Source: a virus. From it: a DNA stretch of 56,765 bases. Shown here one piece after another: positions 30,151 through 33,159 of this stretch. Both the position numbers and the translations under genes were made by a program. The DNA is taken from the IMG/VR virus record IMGVR_UViG_3300045988_138309, one strand, 5' to 3'. How positions within the stretch are numbered: position 1 is the stretch's first letter; every line of letters begins with the position of its first letter. The notes beneath the pieces were generated by a model. It ran no database searches and had not been told where the DNA came from. It saw only the letters and a list, made by a program, of their open reading frames with translations.

Positions 30151-33100
30151 ATGCGCATCATGGACCTGGAGAAGGTCGTGAGCCAGGCCAGGAAGGCCGC
30201 CCAGGGCTCACACACGCCCTGTGGCCCGATCACGTGGGTCTGGGGCAAAGAGGACCTGAAGGCCCTCGTCAAGGCCGTCCACGCCTCGCAGAAGGTCGTC
30301 ATGGACCTCGAGACCACCGGCCTGGACGAGTACGCGGAGGCCGGCGGCGACACCAACGGCAGCTACCCCGCACGGATCGTCCTGGCCTCCCTGACCCTGC
30401 CCAGTGCCGAGCGCGCGGCGGCCGGTGCCTACAACTGGCGCAGCTTCGACGGCGAGCAGCCGATGACCTACCTAGTGCCTCTCTCGCACCCGGCCAGCCC
30501 CCTGCTCGGCTCGTGGAGGAAGGTCATGGCGATCATCGGCCGCGAGATCAACCGCAGCGGCAAGCCCTTCGTCAACGCGAACATCAAGTTCGACGCCCGG
30601 TGGGTCTTCGCCCAGGCCGGCGTGGACCTGTCCGACCGCATCGAGTGGGACACGACCGTCTCGTCCCAGCTGGTGGACACAGAGGCCCGCACCCGCCTCA
30701 AGATTCGCGCCGCGCGCGACTTCGGTATCGAGGAGTGGGACGACTTCGACCTAAGCACTCCAGGCGCCGCCGAGCAGGTCGACCTGATCCAGCTGGGCGA
30801 GTACGCCGCCCGTGACACCTACTACACCTGGAAGATCGAGGAGAAGCACCGCGACCAGATGTTCCTCGCCGGGGACGAGGAGCCCTTCGACTCCGACGAC
30901 ATCCAGATGGCCCGCCTAGGTAAGGTCGCCACCTACGTCGCCATGCCGACTGTGAAGACTCTCACAAAGGTGGAGCAGCGCGGCTTCCTGCTCGACGTCG
31001 ACTGGGTCCACGCCAAGATCGAGGAGATGGACGCCCTGCGCCTGAAGGCCTGCGAGGACATCCTCGGCCTGTACGGCACCGCCCCGGCGCCTGCGCCGGC
31101 GAAGGACGGCGTCACCACGGCCGCGACGTCGAAGTGGTTCCAGGGCTTCGTGGCCCAGGCCATCGAGGCCGGCGACCTGCGTGTGACGGCCCGCACGGAC
31201 TCCGGAAACGCTCAGTGGAACAAGGCGGTCCTCATCGCCCAGCAGCGTCAAGGCAGCCCCGCCGCCGACGCGTTGCTGCGCCACCGCGACGCGACGAAGA
31301 CGCTAGAGTTCCTGCGCTCGTGGCTGGAGCTCCGTGACCCAAACAACGTGATCCATGCCACATACAACGTGGGATTTGTAAAGACGGGAAGATTAAGTTG
31401 TGCCTCCCCGAATCTTCAACAGTGCCTACACGGTGCTGACGAGGTTCTTACCCGCTCCGGGTGGGTGCGGCTTGACGCTCTCGAGCACGGGGTCGAGATC
31501 ATGCAGGTCTCGGAGACCGGGGAGGGCTCCTGGGTCGTGCCTACCGGTTACGTGGACAAGCCCTACGCGGGAAACATGGTCCGCATGAAGTCGGATTGGA
31601 TCGACGTCCTCATGACCCCGGATCACCGCCTCCTGACCCACACCCGTGGCGGAGCTCCTCGCTGGGAGCGGGCCTCGCAGTGGGTGGGGACTGCCGGAAA
31701 GATCGTTGACCGCAAGTTCATCCGCGCTCTGACCTCCGCCCCAGATGCCCCCGACCTTACGGAATCTGAGCGCCGGGAGGTGCGCATGGCCATCGCCATG
31801 CAGGCCGACGGGTCGAGCTCCCGTAAGTCATGGCAGGCGACCGTCGTTAAAAAGCGGAAGGGGGAGGCCCTGATCGAGATGGGAGGAGAGTACCGCGCAG
31901 GATGGGCACGCCCCTGCTACACCCTCCGGGTCCCTAAAGAGAGCCTGTCCAAGTGGCTTGACCCGGAGAGCAAGAACTTCCGGCCCGAGGCATTCCTCGC
32001 TCTGAACCGGAAGGACTGCGCGTGGGCGCTCGACGAGATTCTTCGCTGGGACGGGGACTCTACTCGGGGGTGCACCTACACCCAGAACCAGGCACGCCGC
32101 CCCTCCGTAGACCTGGCACAGGCGCTGGCCGCAATGTGCGGGCGCTCGACCACTCTCTACCGGAAGCAGGTCGATGGGGTGACCTATCCCACGGCCAACT
32201 TCCACCGCAAGGCGATCCGCTACGCGTCCCGGATGTGGGTCACGGAAGAGCCCTACGACGGGCGGGTTTATTGCGTCTCTGTCCCATCGGGCGCCTTCCT
32301 GGCTCGGAGTGGTGGGACGGTCTGGGTCACCGGCAACTGCTCTGCGTCACTAAAACCTGCCTTCATCCCCCGTCCGGGGCACGTCCTGCTCGACCTCGAC
32401 TACAGCCAGGTCGAGCTGCGGGTGGCGGCGTTCATCTCCCGCTCTCAGCCTATGATCGAGGCATTCCAGCGTGGTGATGATCTTCACAGGCTCCTTGCTG
32501 CGAAGATCGCCGGAAAGGCGCCGGAGGACGTCACCAACCTGGAGCGCAAGCGGGCTAAGGCTGGCAACTTCGGCCTCCTCTACGGCATGAGCCCCGGCGG
32601 CTTCCAGTCCTACGCCGCCACCGCCTATGACGTTTCTCTCACTTTGGCGGAGGCTCAGGCCGTCCACAGCGCGTTCTTCGAGATGTGGGATGGCATGCGC
32701 CAGTGGCACGAGCGCGCCAAGCGCCGGGCCTACGAGCGCGGTTATGTGACATCCCCTATCGGGCGCACGCAGTGGCTGAGCGACCTCTACTCGAAGAGCT
32801 CGTTCAAGTCCTCCCACGCCGAGCGCAACGCCCTGAACAGCCCCGTGCAGGGCTTCGGCTCGGACCTCATGCAGATGGCGGCCGCCTCGATCATGGGGAC
32901 CCTGCCCGGCTACCCGCTGCCCCGAGTAGAGGGGGCGCACGTCGTTGCCACCGTCCACGACGAGATCTGCATCGAGGTGCCGGAGGACCGCTGGCAGGAG
33001 ATCCTGATCGAGTGCAAGCGCCGCATGGAGGACGTGAACACCTTCCTGCGCCCGCTCGACTGCCAGATGGACGTCCCGATCGTGGCCGGCCCCTCGGCCG

Positions 33101-33159
33101 GGACGCGCTGGGGCGTGCACGACCTGCACGACGAGGATGACCCGCTCCCAGCAGTCTGA
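30151..33159 (+). CDS. polA: Family-A DNA polymerase (3'-5' exonuclease plus polymerase) interrupted by an intein
   Basis: Exo I motif MDLETTGL; TGRLSCASPNLQQ; motif A DLDYSQVELRV; motif B KRAKAGNFGLLYG; motif C VHDE. 697 aa without the intein. Confidence 0.9.
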   Translation: MRIMDLEKVVSQARKAAQGSHTPCGPITWVWGKEDLKALVKAVHASQKVVMDLETTGLDEYAEAGGDTNGSYPARIVLASLTLPSAERAAAGAYNWRSFDGEQPMTYLVPLSHPASPLLGSWRKVMAIIGREINRSGKPFVNANIKFDARWVFAQAGVDLSDRIEWDTTVSSQLVDTEARTRLKIRAARDFGIEEWDDFDLSTPGAAEQVDLIQLGEYAARDTYYTWKIEEKHRDQMFLAGDEEPFDSDDIQMARLGKVATYVAMPTVKTLTKVEQRGFLLDVDWVHAKIEEMDALRLKACEDILGLYGTAPAPAPAKDGVTTAATSKWFQGFVAQAIEAGDLRVTARTDSGNAQWNKAVLIAQQRQGSPAADALLRHRDATKTLEFLRSWLELRDPNNVIHATYNVGFVKTGRLSCASPNLQQCLHGADEVLTRSGWVRLDALEHGVEIMQVSETGEGSWVVPTGYVDKPYAGNMVRMKSDWIDVLMTPDHRLLTHTRGGAPRWERASQWVGTAGKIVDRKFIRALTSAPDAPDLTESERREVRMAIAMQADGSSSRKSWQATVVKKRKGEALIEMGGEYRAGWARPCYTLRVPKESLSKWLDPESKNFRPEAFLALNRKDCAWALDEILRWDGDSTRGCTYTQNQARRPSVDLAQALAAMCGRSTTLYRKQVDGVTYPTANFHRKAIRYASRMWVTEEPYDGRVYCVSVPSGAFLARSGGTVWVTGNCSASLKPAFIPRPGHVLLDLDYSQVELRVAAFISRSQPMIEAFQRGDDLHRLLAAKIAGKAPEDVTNLERKRAKAGNFGLLYGMSPGGFQSYAATAYDVSLTLAEAQAVHSAFFEMWDGMRQWHERAKRRAYERGYVTSPIGRTQWLSDLYSKSSFKSSHAERNALNSPVQGFGSDLMQMAAASIMGTLPGYPLPRVEGAHVVATVHDEICIEVPEDRWQEILIECKRRMEDVNTFLRPLDCQMDVPIVAGPSAGTRWGVHDLHDEDDPLPAV
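31423..32337 (+). mobile_element. Class-1 intein (305 aa) with a LAGLIDADG-type homing endonuclease domain
   Basis: Inserted between PNLQQ and motif A. Block A CLHGADEVLT; block B LMTPDH; DOD motifs AIAMQADGSS and ILRWDGDST; blocks F/G VYCVSVPSGAFLA...VWVTGN followed by a +1 Cys. Confidence 0.8.

What the first reader, a model, noticed from the sequence alone, without database searches (positions are those of the whole stretch)
31423..32337. LAGLIDADG-type intein inserted in the DNA polymerase between PNLQQ and motif A
The polA reading frame contains a 305-aa insert at one of the most conserved polymerase sites. It has canonical splicing blocks: Cys1 in CLHGADEVLT, TxxH as LMTPDH, C-terminal VYCVSVPSGAFLA...VWVTGN, and a +1 Cys. 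It also has two dodecapeptide-like motifs (AIAMQADGSS and ILRWDGDST). The penultimate residue is Gly rather than the usual His. Removing the insert restores TGRLSCASPNLQQ/CSASLKPAFIP...DLDYSQVELRV. I cannot tell from memory whether this insertion point is already catalogued.
Basis: partly seen in the sequence, partly recalled or inferred. Interest (0 to 1): 0.65.

Follow-up and report, generated by a model that had tools for sequence, protein, structure and literature searches.

The report
Mobile intein in phage DNA polymerase
The 305-residue insert is a real self-splicing, self-copying protein element (an intein with a LAGLIDADG homing endonuclease) that interrupts the DNA polymerase of an Actinomyces-type phage; it is a well-supported but ordinary new member of a known phage intein family.

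Summary
Window 31423..32337 encodes 305 in-frame residues (Cys1...Asn305, then Cys+1) inside a 1002-aa family A DNA polymerase. More than 120 database proteins of exactly 697 aa are 96-97% identical to the polymerase with the insert removed.

The intein reading is supported:
- A full HMMER scan found 4760 relatives. The best sit at the same PolA site.
- An AlphaFold model (pLDDT 95.5) matches endonuclease-bearing inteins: TliVMA, PI-SceI and PI-PfuI.
- The catalytic residues of both domains are conserved.

The penultimate Gly is a family trait (103/114). It is coupled to Arg at block B:11, and homologues with the same Gly splice in published experiments (Bethlehem RDF intein, AceL NrdHF intein).

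Mobility is visible in silico. Another phage contig carries a 99.7% identical intein in polymerase exteins only 88-89% identical, and the identical tract ends 39 nt upstream and 17 nt downstream. In related phages, 47 alleles are vacant, 8 carry this intein, and 7 carry an HNH intein eight codons upstream.

Verdict: new member of a known kind, of modest interest.

The parts
30151..31422 (+). N-extein of the family A DNA polymerase (aa 1-424), ending in TGRLSCASPNLQQ (31384-31422)
   Evidence: ORF. Pfam DNA_pol_A and a weak 3'-5' exonuclease hit. Intein-free 697-aa orthologues. Coordinates.
31423..32337 (+). Intein, 305 aa (Cys1 to Asn305): Hint splicing domain split by a LAGLIDADG endonuclease domain
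   Evidence: family HMM E 1e-111 on this ORF only.
31423..31461 (+). Block A (CLHGADEVLTRSG); Cys1 at 31423-31425
   Evidence: C1, L9, T10 and G13 are invariant in alignment A1. Note that the 114-sequence set was selected for Cys at position 1.
31600..31638 (+). Block B (IDVLMTPDHRLLT): T65 (B:7), H68 (B:10), R69 (B:11), L70 (B:12)
   Evidence: T 111/114, H 114/114, R 88/114; B:12 is hydrophobic, never Trp. In AceL NrdHF, Arg69 compensates for the missing penultimate His (PMC7891396).
31780..31818 (+). First LAGLIDADG-like motif (VRMAIAMQADGSS); catalytic Asp129 at 31807-31809
   Evidence: D 106 / E 8 of 114; G130 101/114. A helix at 114-129 in the model.
31849..31872 (+). Endonuclease block with conserved Arg145-Lys146 (KKRKGEAL)
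   Evidence: R 111/114, K 113/114. Assignment to the conserved Lys of LAGLIDADG block D is an inference from known inteins.
32026..32064 (+). Second LAGLIDADG-like motif (ALDEILRWDGDST); catalytic Asp210 at 32050-32052
   Evidence: W209 and D210 are 114/114. A helix at 196-210 in the model.
32263..32304 (+). Block F (RVYCVSVPSGAFLA); Cys284 at position F:4 (32272-32274)
   Evidence: Cys 114/114. It aligns with Cys124 of AceL NrdHF, which is the class 3 branch-point nucleophile.
32317..32340 (+). Block G (TVWVTGN) plus Cys+1: T303 (G:5), G304 (G:6, penultimate), N305 (G:7), Cys+1 at 32338-32340
   Evidence: G:5 T 63 / S 23; G:6 Gly 103/114; G:7 N 96 / Q 18; +1 C 76 / S 23 / T 15.
32338..33159 (+). 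C-extein (aa 730-1002 plus stop): motif A DLDYSQVELRV at 32392-32424, motif B KAGNFGLLYG at 32557-32586, motif C VHDEI at 32953-32967
31384..32354 (+). Tract shared almost identically (3 mismatches in 971 nt) with IMG/VR loci L059/L060, whose flanking polymerase sequence is only 88-89% identical. It is read as the intein plus short co-conversion tracts.
   Evidence: The nearest mismatches outside the intein are at 31383 and 32355; mismatch density is about 10 per 100 nt in the exteins.

Best explanation
Window 31423..32337 is a bifunctional intein in the only family A DNA polymerase gene of a ~56.8 kb Actinomyces-type siphophage genome.

Splicing (inferred). The polymerase is translated as a 1002-aa precursor. 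The Hint domain (blocks A/B at the N-terminus, F/G at the C-terminus) excises the 305 residues and joins ...PNLQQ to CSASLKP... This gives a 697-aa active polymerase. The likely route is the standard class 1 pathway:
1. Cys1 forms a thioester at the N-junction, helped by Thr65 and His68.
2. The N-extein is transferred to Cys+1.
3. Asn305 cyclises. Arg69 (B:11) stands in for the missing penultimate His.
4. An S-to-N shift forms the peptide bond.

Homing (inferred). The excised intein's LAGLIDADG domain (Asp129, Asp210, Lys146) cuts intein-free polymerase alleles at the PNLQQ|C codons during co-infection. Repair from the intein-bearing copy then copies the intein, with short flanking tracts, into the cut allele.

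Shown here: anatomy, homology, fold, conservation, presence/absence polymorphism, and the signature of recent lateral transfer.
Inferred only: the chemistry, the order of steps, and actual DNA cleavage.
For: Insertion and restoration:
- The coordinates and junctions are exact.
- More than 120 proteins of exactly 697 aa are 96-97% identical to the spliced product. One is named DNA polymerase [Actinomyces oris].

Family:
- 4760 relatives at E<=1e-3. The best (49-38% identity) are in PolA at the same or adjacent sites.
- Others are in Toprim primase, helicase DE|C sites, RNR, TerL, RtcB and PhoH.

Fold:
- The AF2 model built on 38 homologues has pLDDT 95.5 and pTM 0.92.
- Foldseek top hits: TliVMA intein 7qsu (E 3.8e-13), PI-SceI, PI-PfuI (TMq 0.71), PI-TkoII, then AceL NrdHF for the splicing domain (TMt 0.71) and I-DmoI.
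- The profile against PDB sequences hits AceL NrdHF at 3.9e-7.

Catalytic residues are conserved.

Splicing with a penultimate Gly is experimentally established in homologues:
- The Bethlehem RDF intein is a full-length homologue (E 6e-15, same VWCLRVP...TGN). It splices, and G316H impairs it (PMC5050341).
- In AceL NrdHF, G145H abolishes activity and R69A slows it (PMC7891396).

Function in nature:
- The identical 1002-aa protein is on at least 10 public contigs, mostly ~56 kb.
- dN/dS between intein lineages is 0.09-0.16 overall and 0.07-0.22 in the endonuclease domain.

Mobility:
- The intein is 99.7% identical to L059/L060, while the exteins are 88.1% and 89.3% identical, with sharp boundaries at -39 and +17 nt.
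- Distribution is sporadic: the window's nearest extein relatives are intein-free.
- Allele counts: 47 vacant, 8 occupied, 7 with a different intein nearby.
Against: - There is no biochemical evidence for this intein itself.
- Pfam and NCBIfam do not recognise it at all, so the assignment rests on profile, structure-prediction and comparative evidence.
- The invariant F:4 Cys and the G:5 Thr/Ser, together with the closest solved relative being a class 3 intein, leave open whether Cys1 is the initiating nucleophile.
- Lateral transfer could in principle come from ordinary recombination between co-infecting phages rather than endonuclease-driven homing.
- One related copy (L057) has Asp210 replaced by Ala, so endonuclease decay does occur in this lineage.
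Confidence: 0.88

Rival explanations
1. This is the same element, but it splices by a class-3-like or dual-nucleophile route. The internal Cys284 (block F:4), activated by His68 and Thr303, attacks the N-junction and forms a block F branched thioester before transfer to Cys+1. Cys1 would then be dispensable or auxiliary.
For: - F:4 Cys is 114/114 in the family, and G:5 is Thr or Ser in 86/114.
- The closest solved structure, by both sequence and fold, is AceL NrdHF. That intein has been experimentally shown to be class 3. It shares R69, a hydrophobic B:12, C-[VL]-S-V-P in block F, and T-G-N.
- WCT-type inteins that begin with Ser1 or Cys1 were already flagged as candidates for class 3 behaviour (PMC2807308).
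Against: - Nearly all full-length family members begin with Cys; only about 3 of roughly 116 do not.
- The defining class 3 feature, absence of an N-terminal nucleophile, is not met.
- B:12 is never Trp.
- +1 is mostly Cys, whereas class 3 inteins nearly all use Ser or Thr.
- Kelley et al. treated the homologous Bethlehem RDF intein as class 1.
- Cys is simply the second commonest F:4 residue in inteins generally (PMC4031507).
Confidence: 0.2
2. The element is a splicing-competent intein, but its endonuclease is no longer active. It spreads only vertically and by ordinary homologous recombination between co-infecting phages.
For: Endonuclease decay exists in the group: L057 has WAG instead of WDG. 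Phage genomes in this group are mosaics with about 7-12% nucleotide divergence and plenty of opportunity for recombination.
Against: - Asp129, Asp210, Arg145 and Lys146 are intact in the window copy.
- The endonuclease domain is under purifying selection (omega 0.07-0.22).
- The exchanged tract is centred exactly on the intein, with flanks of only 39 and 17 nt. This is what double-strand-break repair at the insertion site predicts and is not expected from random recombination.
- None of 47 vacant alleles has the reconstituted TGC-TCT target. All differ at codon +2 or lack the Cys codon, as expected if cleavable sites get filled.
Confidence: 0.1
3. The segment is a non-splicing structural insertion, or the gene is a dead polymerase pseudogene.
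For: None beyond the absence of Pfam/NCBIfam hits.
Against: - The insert breaks the conserved TGRLSxxPNLQ(N/Q)-[I/V/L] motif, which is contiguous in homologues.
- Orthologues lack the insert precisely.
- All splicing residues are conserved.
- The ORF is intact in several independent ~56 kb genomes.
- No other family A polymerase was seen among the long ORFs of the window.
Confidence: 0.02

Closest known systems
Mycobacteriophage Bethlehem RDF (phosphoesterase, gp51/gp52) intein
   Same: Full-length homologue (BLASTP E 6e-15). It has Cys1, TxxH, block F with Cys at F:4 (VWCLRVP), a T-G-N C-terminus and an embedded endonuclease domain, and it is an actinophage intein. It was shown experimentally to splice, and changing the penultimate Gly to His impairs splicing (PMC5050341).
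   Different: Only about 25% identical. The host protein is different (metallophosphoesterase, GNHD|C site). The +1 residue is Ser rather than Cys.
AceL NrdHF split class 3 intein (PDB 6zgq)
   Same: It is the closest solved structure to the splicing domain by sequence profile (E 3.9e-7) and by fold (TMt 0.71). Key residues share numbering: S/T65, H68, R69, M/L70. Block F is C-[LV]-S-V-P. The C-terminus is T-G-N. It lacks both His F:13 and the penultimate His.
   Different: AceL begins with Ala1 and is naturally split, with a free-standing GIY-YIG endonuclease gene. It sits in an RNR beta subunit gene. It is experimentally class 3. The window intein has Cys1, is contiguous and carries a LAGLIDADG domain.
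Lactococcus phage KSY1 PolA intein (annotated 'intein-containing DNA polymerase I')
   Same: Same host protein family and the same intein family: CFSGDTEILT...VYCVNVP...IQGN|C.
   Different: It is inserted in motif B (AKA|C...GN|CNFSLLYG), not after PNLQQ. In KSY1 the PNLQQ|VPQ site is uninterrupted.
PI-SceI, PI-PfuI and TliVMA LAGLIDADG inteins
   Same: Same two-domain architecture, Hint plus a double-motif LAGLIDADG endonuclease. They are the best Foldseek matches to the whole model (E 1e-13 to 1e-9, TMq 0.54-0.71).
   Different: Sequence identity is 8-15%. They have Asp at F:4 and a penultimate His, extra DNA-recognition regions, larger size, and archaeal or yeast hosts.
HNH intein of Dulem virus 38 polymerase and six IMG/VR relatives
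   Same: Orthologous polymerase (about 77-83% aa identity in the exteins). The insertion is in the same motif, only 8 codons upstream (TGRLSS|C...VHN|S).
   Different: It is an unrelated intein: classical D at F:4 (VWDMTVPEDH), a penultimate His, and an HNH_3 endonuclease instead of LAGLIDADG.

Membership tests
Intein (Hint-domain protein-splicing element) | In-frame insertion in a conserved host protein whose homologues lack it precisely | tested here: met
   697-aa orthologues at 96-97% identity carry the contiguous TGRLSCASPNLQQCSASLKP.
Intein (Hint-domain protein-splicing element) | N-terminal nucleophile (Cys/Ser) and block B TxxH | tested here: met
   Cys1; T65-P-D-H68. H is 114/114 and T is 111/114 in the family.
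Intein (Hint-domain protein-splicing element) | C-terminal Asn (or Gln) followed by Cys/Ser/Thr at +1 | tested here: met
   N305 and Cys+1. In the family: N 96 / Q 18, and +1 is C/S/T in 114/114.
Intein (Hint-domain protein-splicing element) | Penultimate His (common but not obligatory) | tested here: not met
   Gly304; Gly in 103/114 relatives. Published work shows homologues with Gly splice, and that introducing His harms them.
Intein (Hint-domain protein-splicing element) | Hint fold | tested here: met
   AF2 pLDDT 95.5. Foldseek matches inteins, Hedgehog C-terminal domain and BIL domains. This rests on a predicted, not a solved, structure.
Intein (Hint-domain protein-splicing element) | Recognition by curated intein models (Pfam Intein_splicing/Hint, NCBIfam) | tested here: not met
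   No hit at E<=1 (Pfam) or E<=10 (NCBIfam). PHROGs hits fall only on intein-bearing PhoH, ThyX and RNR families.
Intein (Hint-domain protein-splicing element) | Demonstrated protein splicing | not testable with these tools
   Needs expression and detection of ligated exteins.
LAGLIDADG homing endonuclease (double-motif, intein-embedded) | Two LAGLIDADG-type helices, each ending in a conserved acidic residue followed by Gly | tested here: met
   QAD129G and WD210G. D/E 114/114 and D 114/114. Helices at 114-129 and 196-210.
LAGLIDADG homing endonuclease (double-motif, intein-embedded) | LAGLIDADG fold | tested here: met
   Foldseek: PI-SceI, PI-PfuI, TliVMA, PI-TkoII, I-DmoI, I-Tsp061I. Predicted model.
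LAGLIDADG homing endonuclease (double-motif, intein-embedded) | Site-specific DNA cleavage and homing | tested here: inconclusive
   Cleavage is not testable here. The indirect signature is present: a 99.7% identical intein in 88-89% identical exteins with 39/17-nt flanks, sporadic distribution, and omega 0.07-0.22 on the domain.
Class 3 inteins | No Cys/Ser/Thr at intein position 1 | tested here: not met
   Cys1 is present here and in nearly all full-length relatives.
Class 3 inteins | Trp at block B:12 | tested here: not met
   Leu70. The family has M/V/L/I/C/F and never W. AceL NrdHF, a proven class 3 intein, also lacks Trp.
Class 3 inteins | Cys at block F:4 | tested here: met
   Cys284, 114/114.
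Class 3 inteins | Thr at block G:5 | tested here: met
   Thr303. Family: T 63, S 23 of 114.
Class 3 inteins | Block F branched thioester intermediate | not testable with these tools
   Needs mutagenesis (C1A, C284A, C+1A) and detection of the intermediate.

The most novel reading that the evidence does not exclude
This large phage intein family (Cys1 + invariant Cys F:4 + Thr/Ser G:5 + Gly G:6 + Arg B:11) may be the living class-1-like stock from which AceL-type, and perhaps all, class 3 inteins arose. Its members, the window intein included, may already be able to use the internal Cys284 as the first nucleophile. That would make two alternative entry routes into splicing available in one protein. 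It would also explain why loss of Cys1 was survivable, which is the step that Tori and Perler had to assume was rescued by co-infecting phages.
Probability: 0.18. Interest if true: 0.6.

Novelty: new member of a known kind. Interest (0 to 1): 0.35.

Why it matters
In itself it matters little: inteins in phage replication genes, including PolA, are known. Four things have practical value.

1. Annotation. Pfam and NCBIfam miss this whole intein family. The polymerase is therefore mis-sized and vaguely labelled in public records; the Dulem virus 38 orthologue, for example, is called 'polymerase/primase'.

2. A natural test system for the homing cycle. The Actinomyces-phage population offers vacant, LAGLIDADG-occupied and HNH-occupied alleles of one gene. 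There is a datable recent transfer, and there are site haplotypes that look immune to one intein or the other.

3. Mechanism. The family combines Cys1 with the class 3 catalytic Cys/Thr. This makes it a cheap system for asking how class 3 splicing evolved.

4. Tools. A compact intein (about 140-aa splicing domain) that needs no penultimate His and accepts Cys+1 could serve as a protein-engineering scaffold, as its relative AceL NrdHF has.

Tried and rejected
- Pfam, NCBIfam and single-sequence phmmer against PDB on the insert found nothing useful. The word-indexed protein search with the insert also found nothing at E<=1e-3, although the exhaustive HMMER scan later found thousands of relatives.
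- Single-sequence AlphaFold failed (pLDDT 36.6). Only the alignment-based run was usable.
- Model coordinates are not exposed, so Cys1-Cys284-junction distances could not be measured.
- I checked whether other genes of the window carry inteins. The family HMM hit only the polymerase, and Pfam on ten long ORFs showed none.
- I looked for a GenBank phage with this intein at this PolA site, using a query that spans the junction. None was found. Hits labelled 'DNA polymerase' (Escherichia phage JEP1 and others) are in a different polymerase at a different site. The Proteus phage hit is in a phosphoesterase-like gene.
- The KSY1 PolA intein, recalled from memory, was checked and lies in motif B.
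- Base composition gives no contrast between intein and exteins, so it says nothing about origin.
- Minus-strand ORFs inside the intein (71 and 125 aa) were considered as possible antisense endonuclease genes. They were dismissed as typical high-GC shadow ORFs, because the in-frame LAGLIDADG domain is complete.
- Tori & Perler 2011, on class 3 inteins with N-terminal nucleophiles, is not held in the library.
- A pairwise MAFFT loop crashed and was replaced by direct comparison.
- The extein extraction for HNH alleles was misregistered, and those numbers are not used.
Full report
**1. The observation**

The window holds one long ORF, 30151..33159 (+), of 1002 aa. Its ends match family A DNA polymerase (Pfam DNA_pol_A, E 4.8e-67; NCBIfam DNA polymerase I models, about 1e-70).

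Reading the DNA and translating it shows:
- Codon 425 (TGC, 31423-31425) follows TGRLSCASPNLQQ.
- Codon 729 (AAC, 32335-32337) ends VWVTGN.
- Next come TGC (Cys+1) and SASLKPAFIP...DLDYSQVELRV (motif A, 32392-32424).

The insert is therefore 915 nt or 305 aa, at exactly the coordinates given.

**2. Is it an insertion?**

I searched with the polymerase after removing residues 425-729. This returned more than 120 proteins of exactly 697 aa at 96-97% identity. One is named DNA polymerase [Actinomyces oris]; many are on ~55 kb contigs.

In IMG/VR I found 63 related loci. Classified by the sequence after TGRLS:
- 47 have an uninterrupted site.
- 8 (counting the window) carry this insert.
- 7 (counting GenBank's Dulem virus 38) carry a different insert eight codons upstream.

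Locus L011 reads TGRLSCASPNLQQCSASLKPAFI with no interruption. That is exactly the predicted splice product.

**3. Is it an intein?**

Curated libraries do not recognise it:
- Pfam and NCBIfam gave nothing for the insert.
- PDB phmmer gave nothing.
- The word-indexed protein search found nothing.

The first hint came from PHROGs, where the insert matches oversized PhoH, thymidylate synthase and RNR families.

An exhaustive HMMER scan of 1.84 billion representatives then gave 4760 relatives at E<=1e-3 and 32 at E<=1e-30.

The ten best are all family A polymerases. They carry a homologous 300-320-aa element in one of three places:
- at the same point (PNMQQ|C...TGN|C);
- three residues earlier (PN|C...GN|[CST]QN);
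- one residue later (PNLQQL|C...SGN|S).

Further relatives sit in PolA motif B, helicase DE|C sites, Toprim EGE|C sites and elsewhere.

tblastn against 50,697 GenBank phages found full-length 25-31% matches inside primase, RNR, terminase, RtcB, PhoH and other polymerase genes. One of these is annotated 'intein-containing topoisomerase primase'. The same element in unrelated host genes, always flanked by Cys...[NQ]|[CST], is the behaviour of an intein family.

A 38-sequence alignment (A1) and a 114-sequence tabulation give these conserved positions:

| Position | Conservation |
|---|---|
| Cys1 | present in all (the set was selected for it; about 3 of 116 full-length hits lack it) |
| Thr65 (B:7) | 111/114 |
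| His68 (B:10) | 114/114 |
| Asp129 | D 106 / E 8 |
| Arg145-Lys146 | 111 and 113 of 114 |
| Trp209-Asp210 | 114/114 |
| Cys284 (F:4) | 114/114 |
| Gly304 (penultimate) | 103/114 |
| Asn305 | N 96 / Q 18 |
| +1 residue | C 76 / S 23 / T 15 |

A profile of A1 hits solved inteins. Best is AceL NrdHF (6zgq, E 3.9e-7), followed by the MJ0781 (KlbA) intein, VMA inteins across residues 15-282, the RecA mini-intein and the DnaX mini-intein.

AlphaFold with A1 gave pLDDT 95.5 and pTM 0.92. The single-sequence run had failed. Foldseek against the PDB ranks:
- TliVMA (E 3.8e-13), PhoVMA, PI-SceI, PI-PfuI (TMq 0.71) and PI-TkoII first. All are Hint plus LAGLIDADG inteins.
- Then AceL NrdHF for the splicing domain (TMt 0.71).
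- Then Hedgehog, Prp8 inteins, BIL domains and the free-standing LAGLIDADG enzymes I-DmoI and I-Tsp061I.

So both the intein call and the LAGLIDADG call are supported.

**4. The penultimate Gly**

This is a family trait, not decay. Two experimentally studied homologues explain it.

Mycobacteriophage Bethlehem phosphoesterase/RDF intein:
- It aligns with the window intein over its full length (E 6e-15) and shares VWCLRVP...TGN.
- Kelley et al. showed that it splices.
- Replacing its penultimate Gly316 with His causes precursor to accumulate (PMC5050341).

AceL NrdHF intein:
- It has the same T-G-N end.
- There G145H abolishes activity because it clashes with Arg69 (block B:11). Arg69 contacts the C-scissile carbonyl, and R69A slows splicing (PMC7891396).
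- The window intein has Arg at the same position, literally Arg69. Arg is found there in 88/114 relatives.

The phiCbK RNR intein, with its 'uncommon' Gly-Gln end (PMC3556154), fits the Gln variant of the same pattern.

**5.

Block F position 4 is Cys in all 114 relatives, and block G:5 is Thr or Ser in 86. With B:12 these positions make up the class 3 'WCT' triplet. AceL NrdHF is a proven class 3 intein with an MCT variant and Ala1.

The window intein reads L-C-T but keeps Cys1 and Cys+1. By the usual definition, which requires no N-terminal nucleophile, it is not class 3. Kelley et al. also treated the homologous RDF intein as class 1.

I take class 1 as the most likely chemistry. The invariance of Cys284 and the kinship with AceL leave a class-3-like or dual route open, at about 0.2. 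This family is the kind of phage class 1 stock from which class 3 inteins were proposed to derive (PMC3196547).

**6. Is it active and mobile?**

Evidence that the intein-bearing polymerase works in nature:
- The exact 1002-aa protein occurs on at least 10 public contigs, mostly about 56 kb, the size of whole genomes.
- The window itself looks like a complete siphophage genome. It has terminase, a Mu-F-like protein, a long tape-measure-sized ORF, a GH25 endolysin, a primase-helicase and this single PolA gene.
- The polymerase is therefore presumably essential.

Evidence that both domains are under selection:
- Six intein copies at this site fall into lineages 76-79% identical in DNA and 78-85% in protein.
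- dN/dS is 0.09-0.16 overall, 0.07-0.22 in the endonuclease domain and 0.01-0.06 in the C-terminal splicing block.

The strongest single result concerns loci L059/L060:
- They differ from the window at 3 of 915 intein positions (99.7% identity).
- Their N- and C-exteins are only 88.1% and 89.3% identical to the window's.
- Mismatch density is about 10 per 100 nt up to window position 31383. It is near zero from 31384 to 32354. It returns to about 10 per 100 nt from 32355.
- The shared tract is therefore the intein plus 39 nt upstream and 17 nt downstream. This is the pattern expected from endonuclease-initiated gene conversion.

The window's closest extein relatives at the DNA level (93%) are intein-free, so the distribution is sporadic.

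**7. The site in the population**

Vacant alleles fall into two haplotypes:
- TGRLSC[SAD]SPN[LM]QQ-C... (29 loci).
- TGRLSSS[NS]PNVQQ-I... (18 loci).

In polymerases generally the residue after QN/QQ is Ile, Val or Leu (PNxQN[IVL]P). E. coli Pol I reads PNLQNIP, from my own knowledge. The Ile haplotype therefore looks ancestral. It cannot host this intein because it offers no +1 nucleophile.

The Cys haplotype is either a footprint of past occupancy or a pre-adapted site. No vacant Cys allele has the TGC-TCT found next to the intein. They have TGC-AGT, TGC-GCT, TGT-GCA or TGC-TCG. This fits survival of uncleavable sites, though that is an inference.

The HNH intein sits in the Ile haplotype in L049 and L050 (TGRLSS|...|SNPNVQQISARLKP). 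In Dulem virus 38 (L001) the corresponding residue is Val (SSPNMQQVSKALKP). No locus carries both inteins.

**8. Comparison with the known, and novelty**

- Inteins in bacterial DNA polymerase I are reported (PMC4760082).
- Lactococcus phage KSY1 has an annotated PolA intein of this same family, but in motif B.
- A junction-spanning tblastn found no GenBank phage with an intein at the PNLQQ site.
- The 2025 actinobacteriophage intein survey does not list DNA polymerase I among its 19 host genes (10.1101/2025.01.02.630785).

So the site appears unrepresented among deposited phage genomes, but it is plainly common in metagenomes. I could not consult InBase.

Overall this is a new member of a known kind. 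Interest is modest. It comes from the clean population-level evidence for homing, the two competing inteins, the annotation blind spot, and the mixed class 1 / class 3 signature.

Noticed in passing
L001:3001-5865 (Dulem virus 38, PP511596.1); also L049, L050, L053, L054, L055, L062: The orthologous polymerase of related phages carries an unrelated 258-aa intein with an HNH_3 endonuclease, classical Asp at F:4 and a penultimate His. It lies eight codons upstream of the window's site (TGRLSS|CVSPD...ITVHN|S). The GenBank record calls the gene only 'polymerase/primase'. No locus has both inteins.
   Followed up: partly
window 31384-32370, compared with L002-L064: Polymerases that are 96-97% identical in protein differ sharply in DNA at the insertion site. 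There are two vacant haplotypes: ...SC[SAD]SPN[LM]QQ-C (29 loci) and ...SSS[NS]PNVQQ-I (18 loci). The same Ser after the Cys is encoded by AGT in vacant alleles and by TCT or TCC in occupied ones. The Cys haplotype alters the HNH intein's site. The Ile haplotype lacks the +1 nucleophile for the LAGLIDADG intein. This looks like reciprocal immunity but was not tested.
   Followed up: partly
L057 (IMGVR_UViG_3300006295_000024), intein residue 210: This copy of the same intein has WAGDS instead of WDGDS. The invariant second LAGLIDADG Asp is replaced by Ala, which may be an example of endonuclease decay within the homing cycle.
   Followed up: no
L046 (IMGVR_UViG_3300007309_000033), from about 244 nt into the intein: The contig is identical to L047 through the N-extein and the first 244 nt of the intein. 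It then switches to unrelated sequence in the same frame. This is probably an assembly chimera.
   Followed up: partly
P0001 (1272 aa, best hit): This metagenomic polymerase carries two inteins: the homologue of the window's at PNMQQ|C, and a second at motif B (RAKA|CIAAGELV...LVHN|CSFGLIYG). The second has a long low-complexity middle and a classical His-Asn end.
   Followed up: no
P0021 and P0026 (417 and 415 aa): These are short proteins made of about 100 aa of PolA N-extein, ending in PNLQN, followed by a homologous intein. The intein starts with Gly instead of Cys, lacks the terminal Asn, and has almost no C-extein. They may be decayed or truncated alleles.
   Followed up: no
window 31423-32337, and the family as a whole: Pfam-A and NCBIfam give no hit to this intein at permissive thresholds, although the family has thousands of members. 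The weakly detected HNH intein of Dulem virus 38 (Hint 9e-5, Intein_splicing 1.7e-3, both below their cut-offs) shows the same annotation blind spot.
   Followed up: yes
L069:13412-16099 (Lactococcus phage KSY1 gp096): The annotated KSY1 PolA intein belongs to the same Cys1 / VYCVNVP / GN|C family but is inserted in motif B (AKA|C...IQGN|CNFSLLYG). The same site is used by several metagenomic hits (P0054, P0057, P0102 and others).
   Followed up: partly
window 31399-31401 (Cys417) and 32338-32340 (Cys+1): In the Cys haplotype the mature polymerase would have two cysteines seven residues apart (TGRLSC-ASPNLQQ-C). Both are absent from the Ile haplotype. Whether they interact, for example through redox control of splicing or of the polymerase, is unknown.
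   Followed up: no
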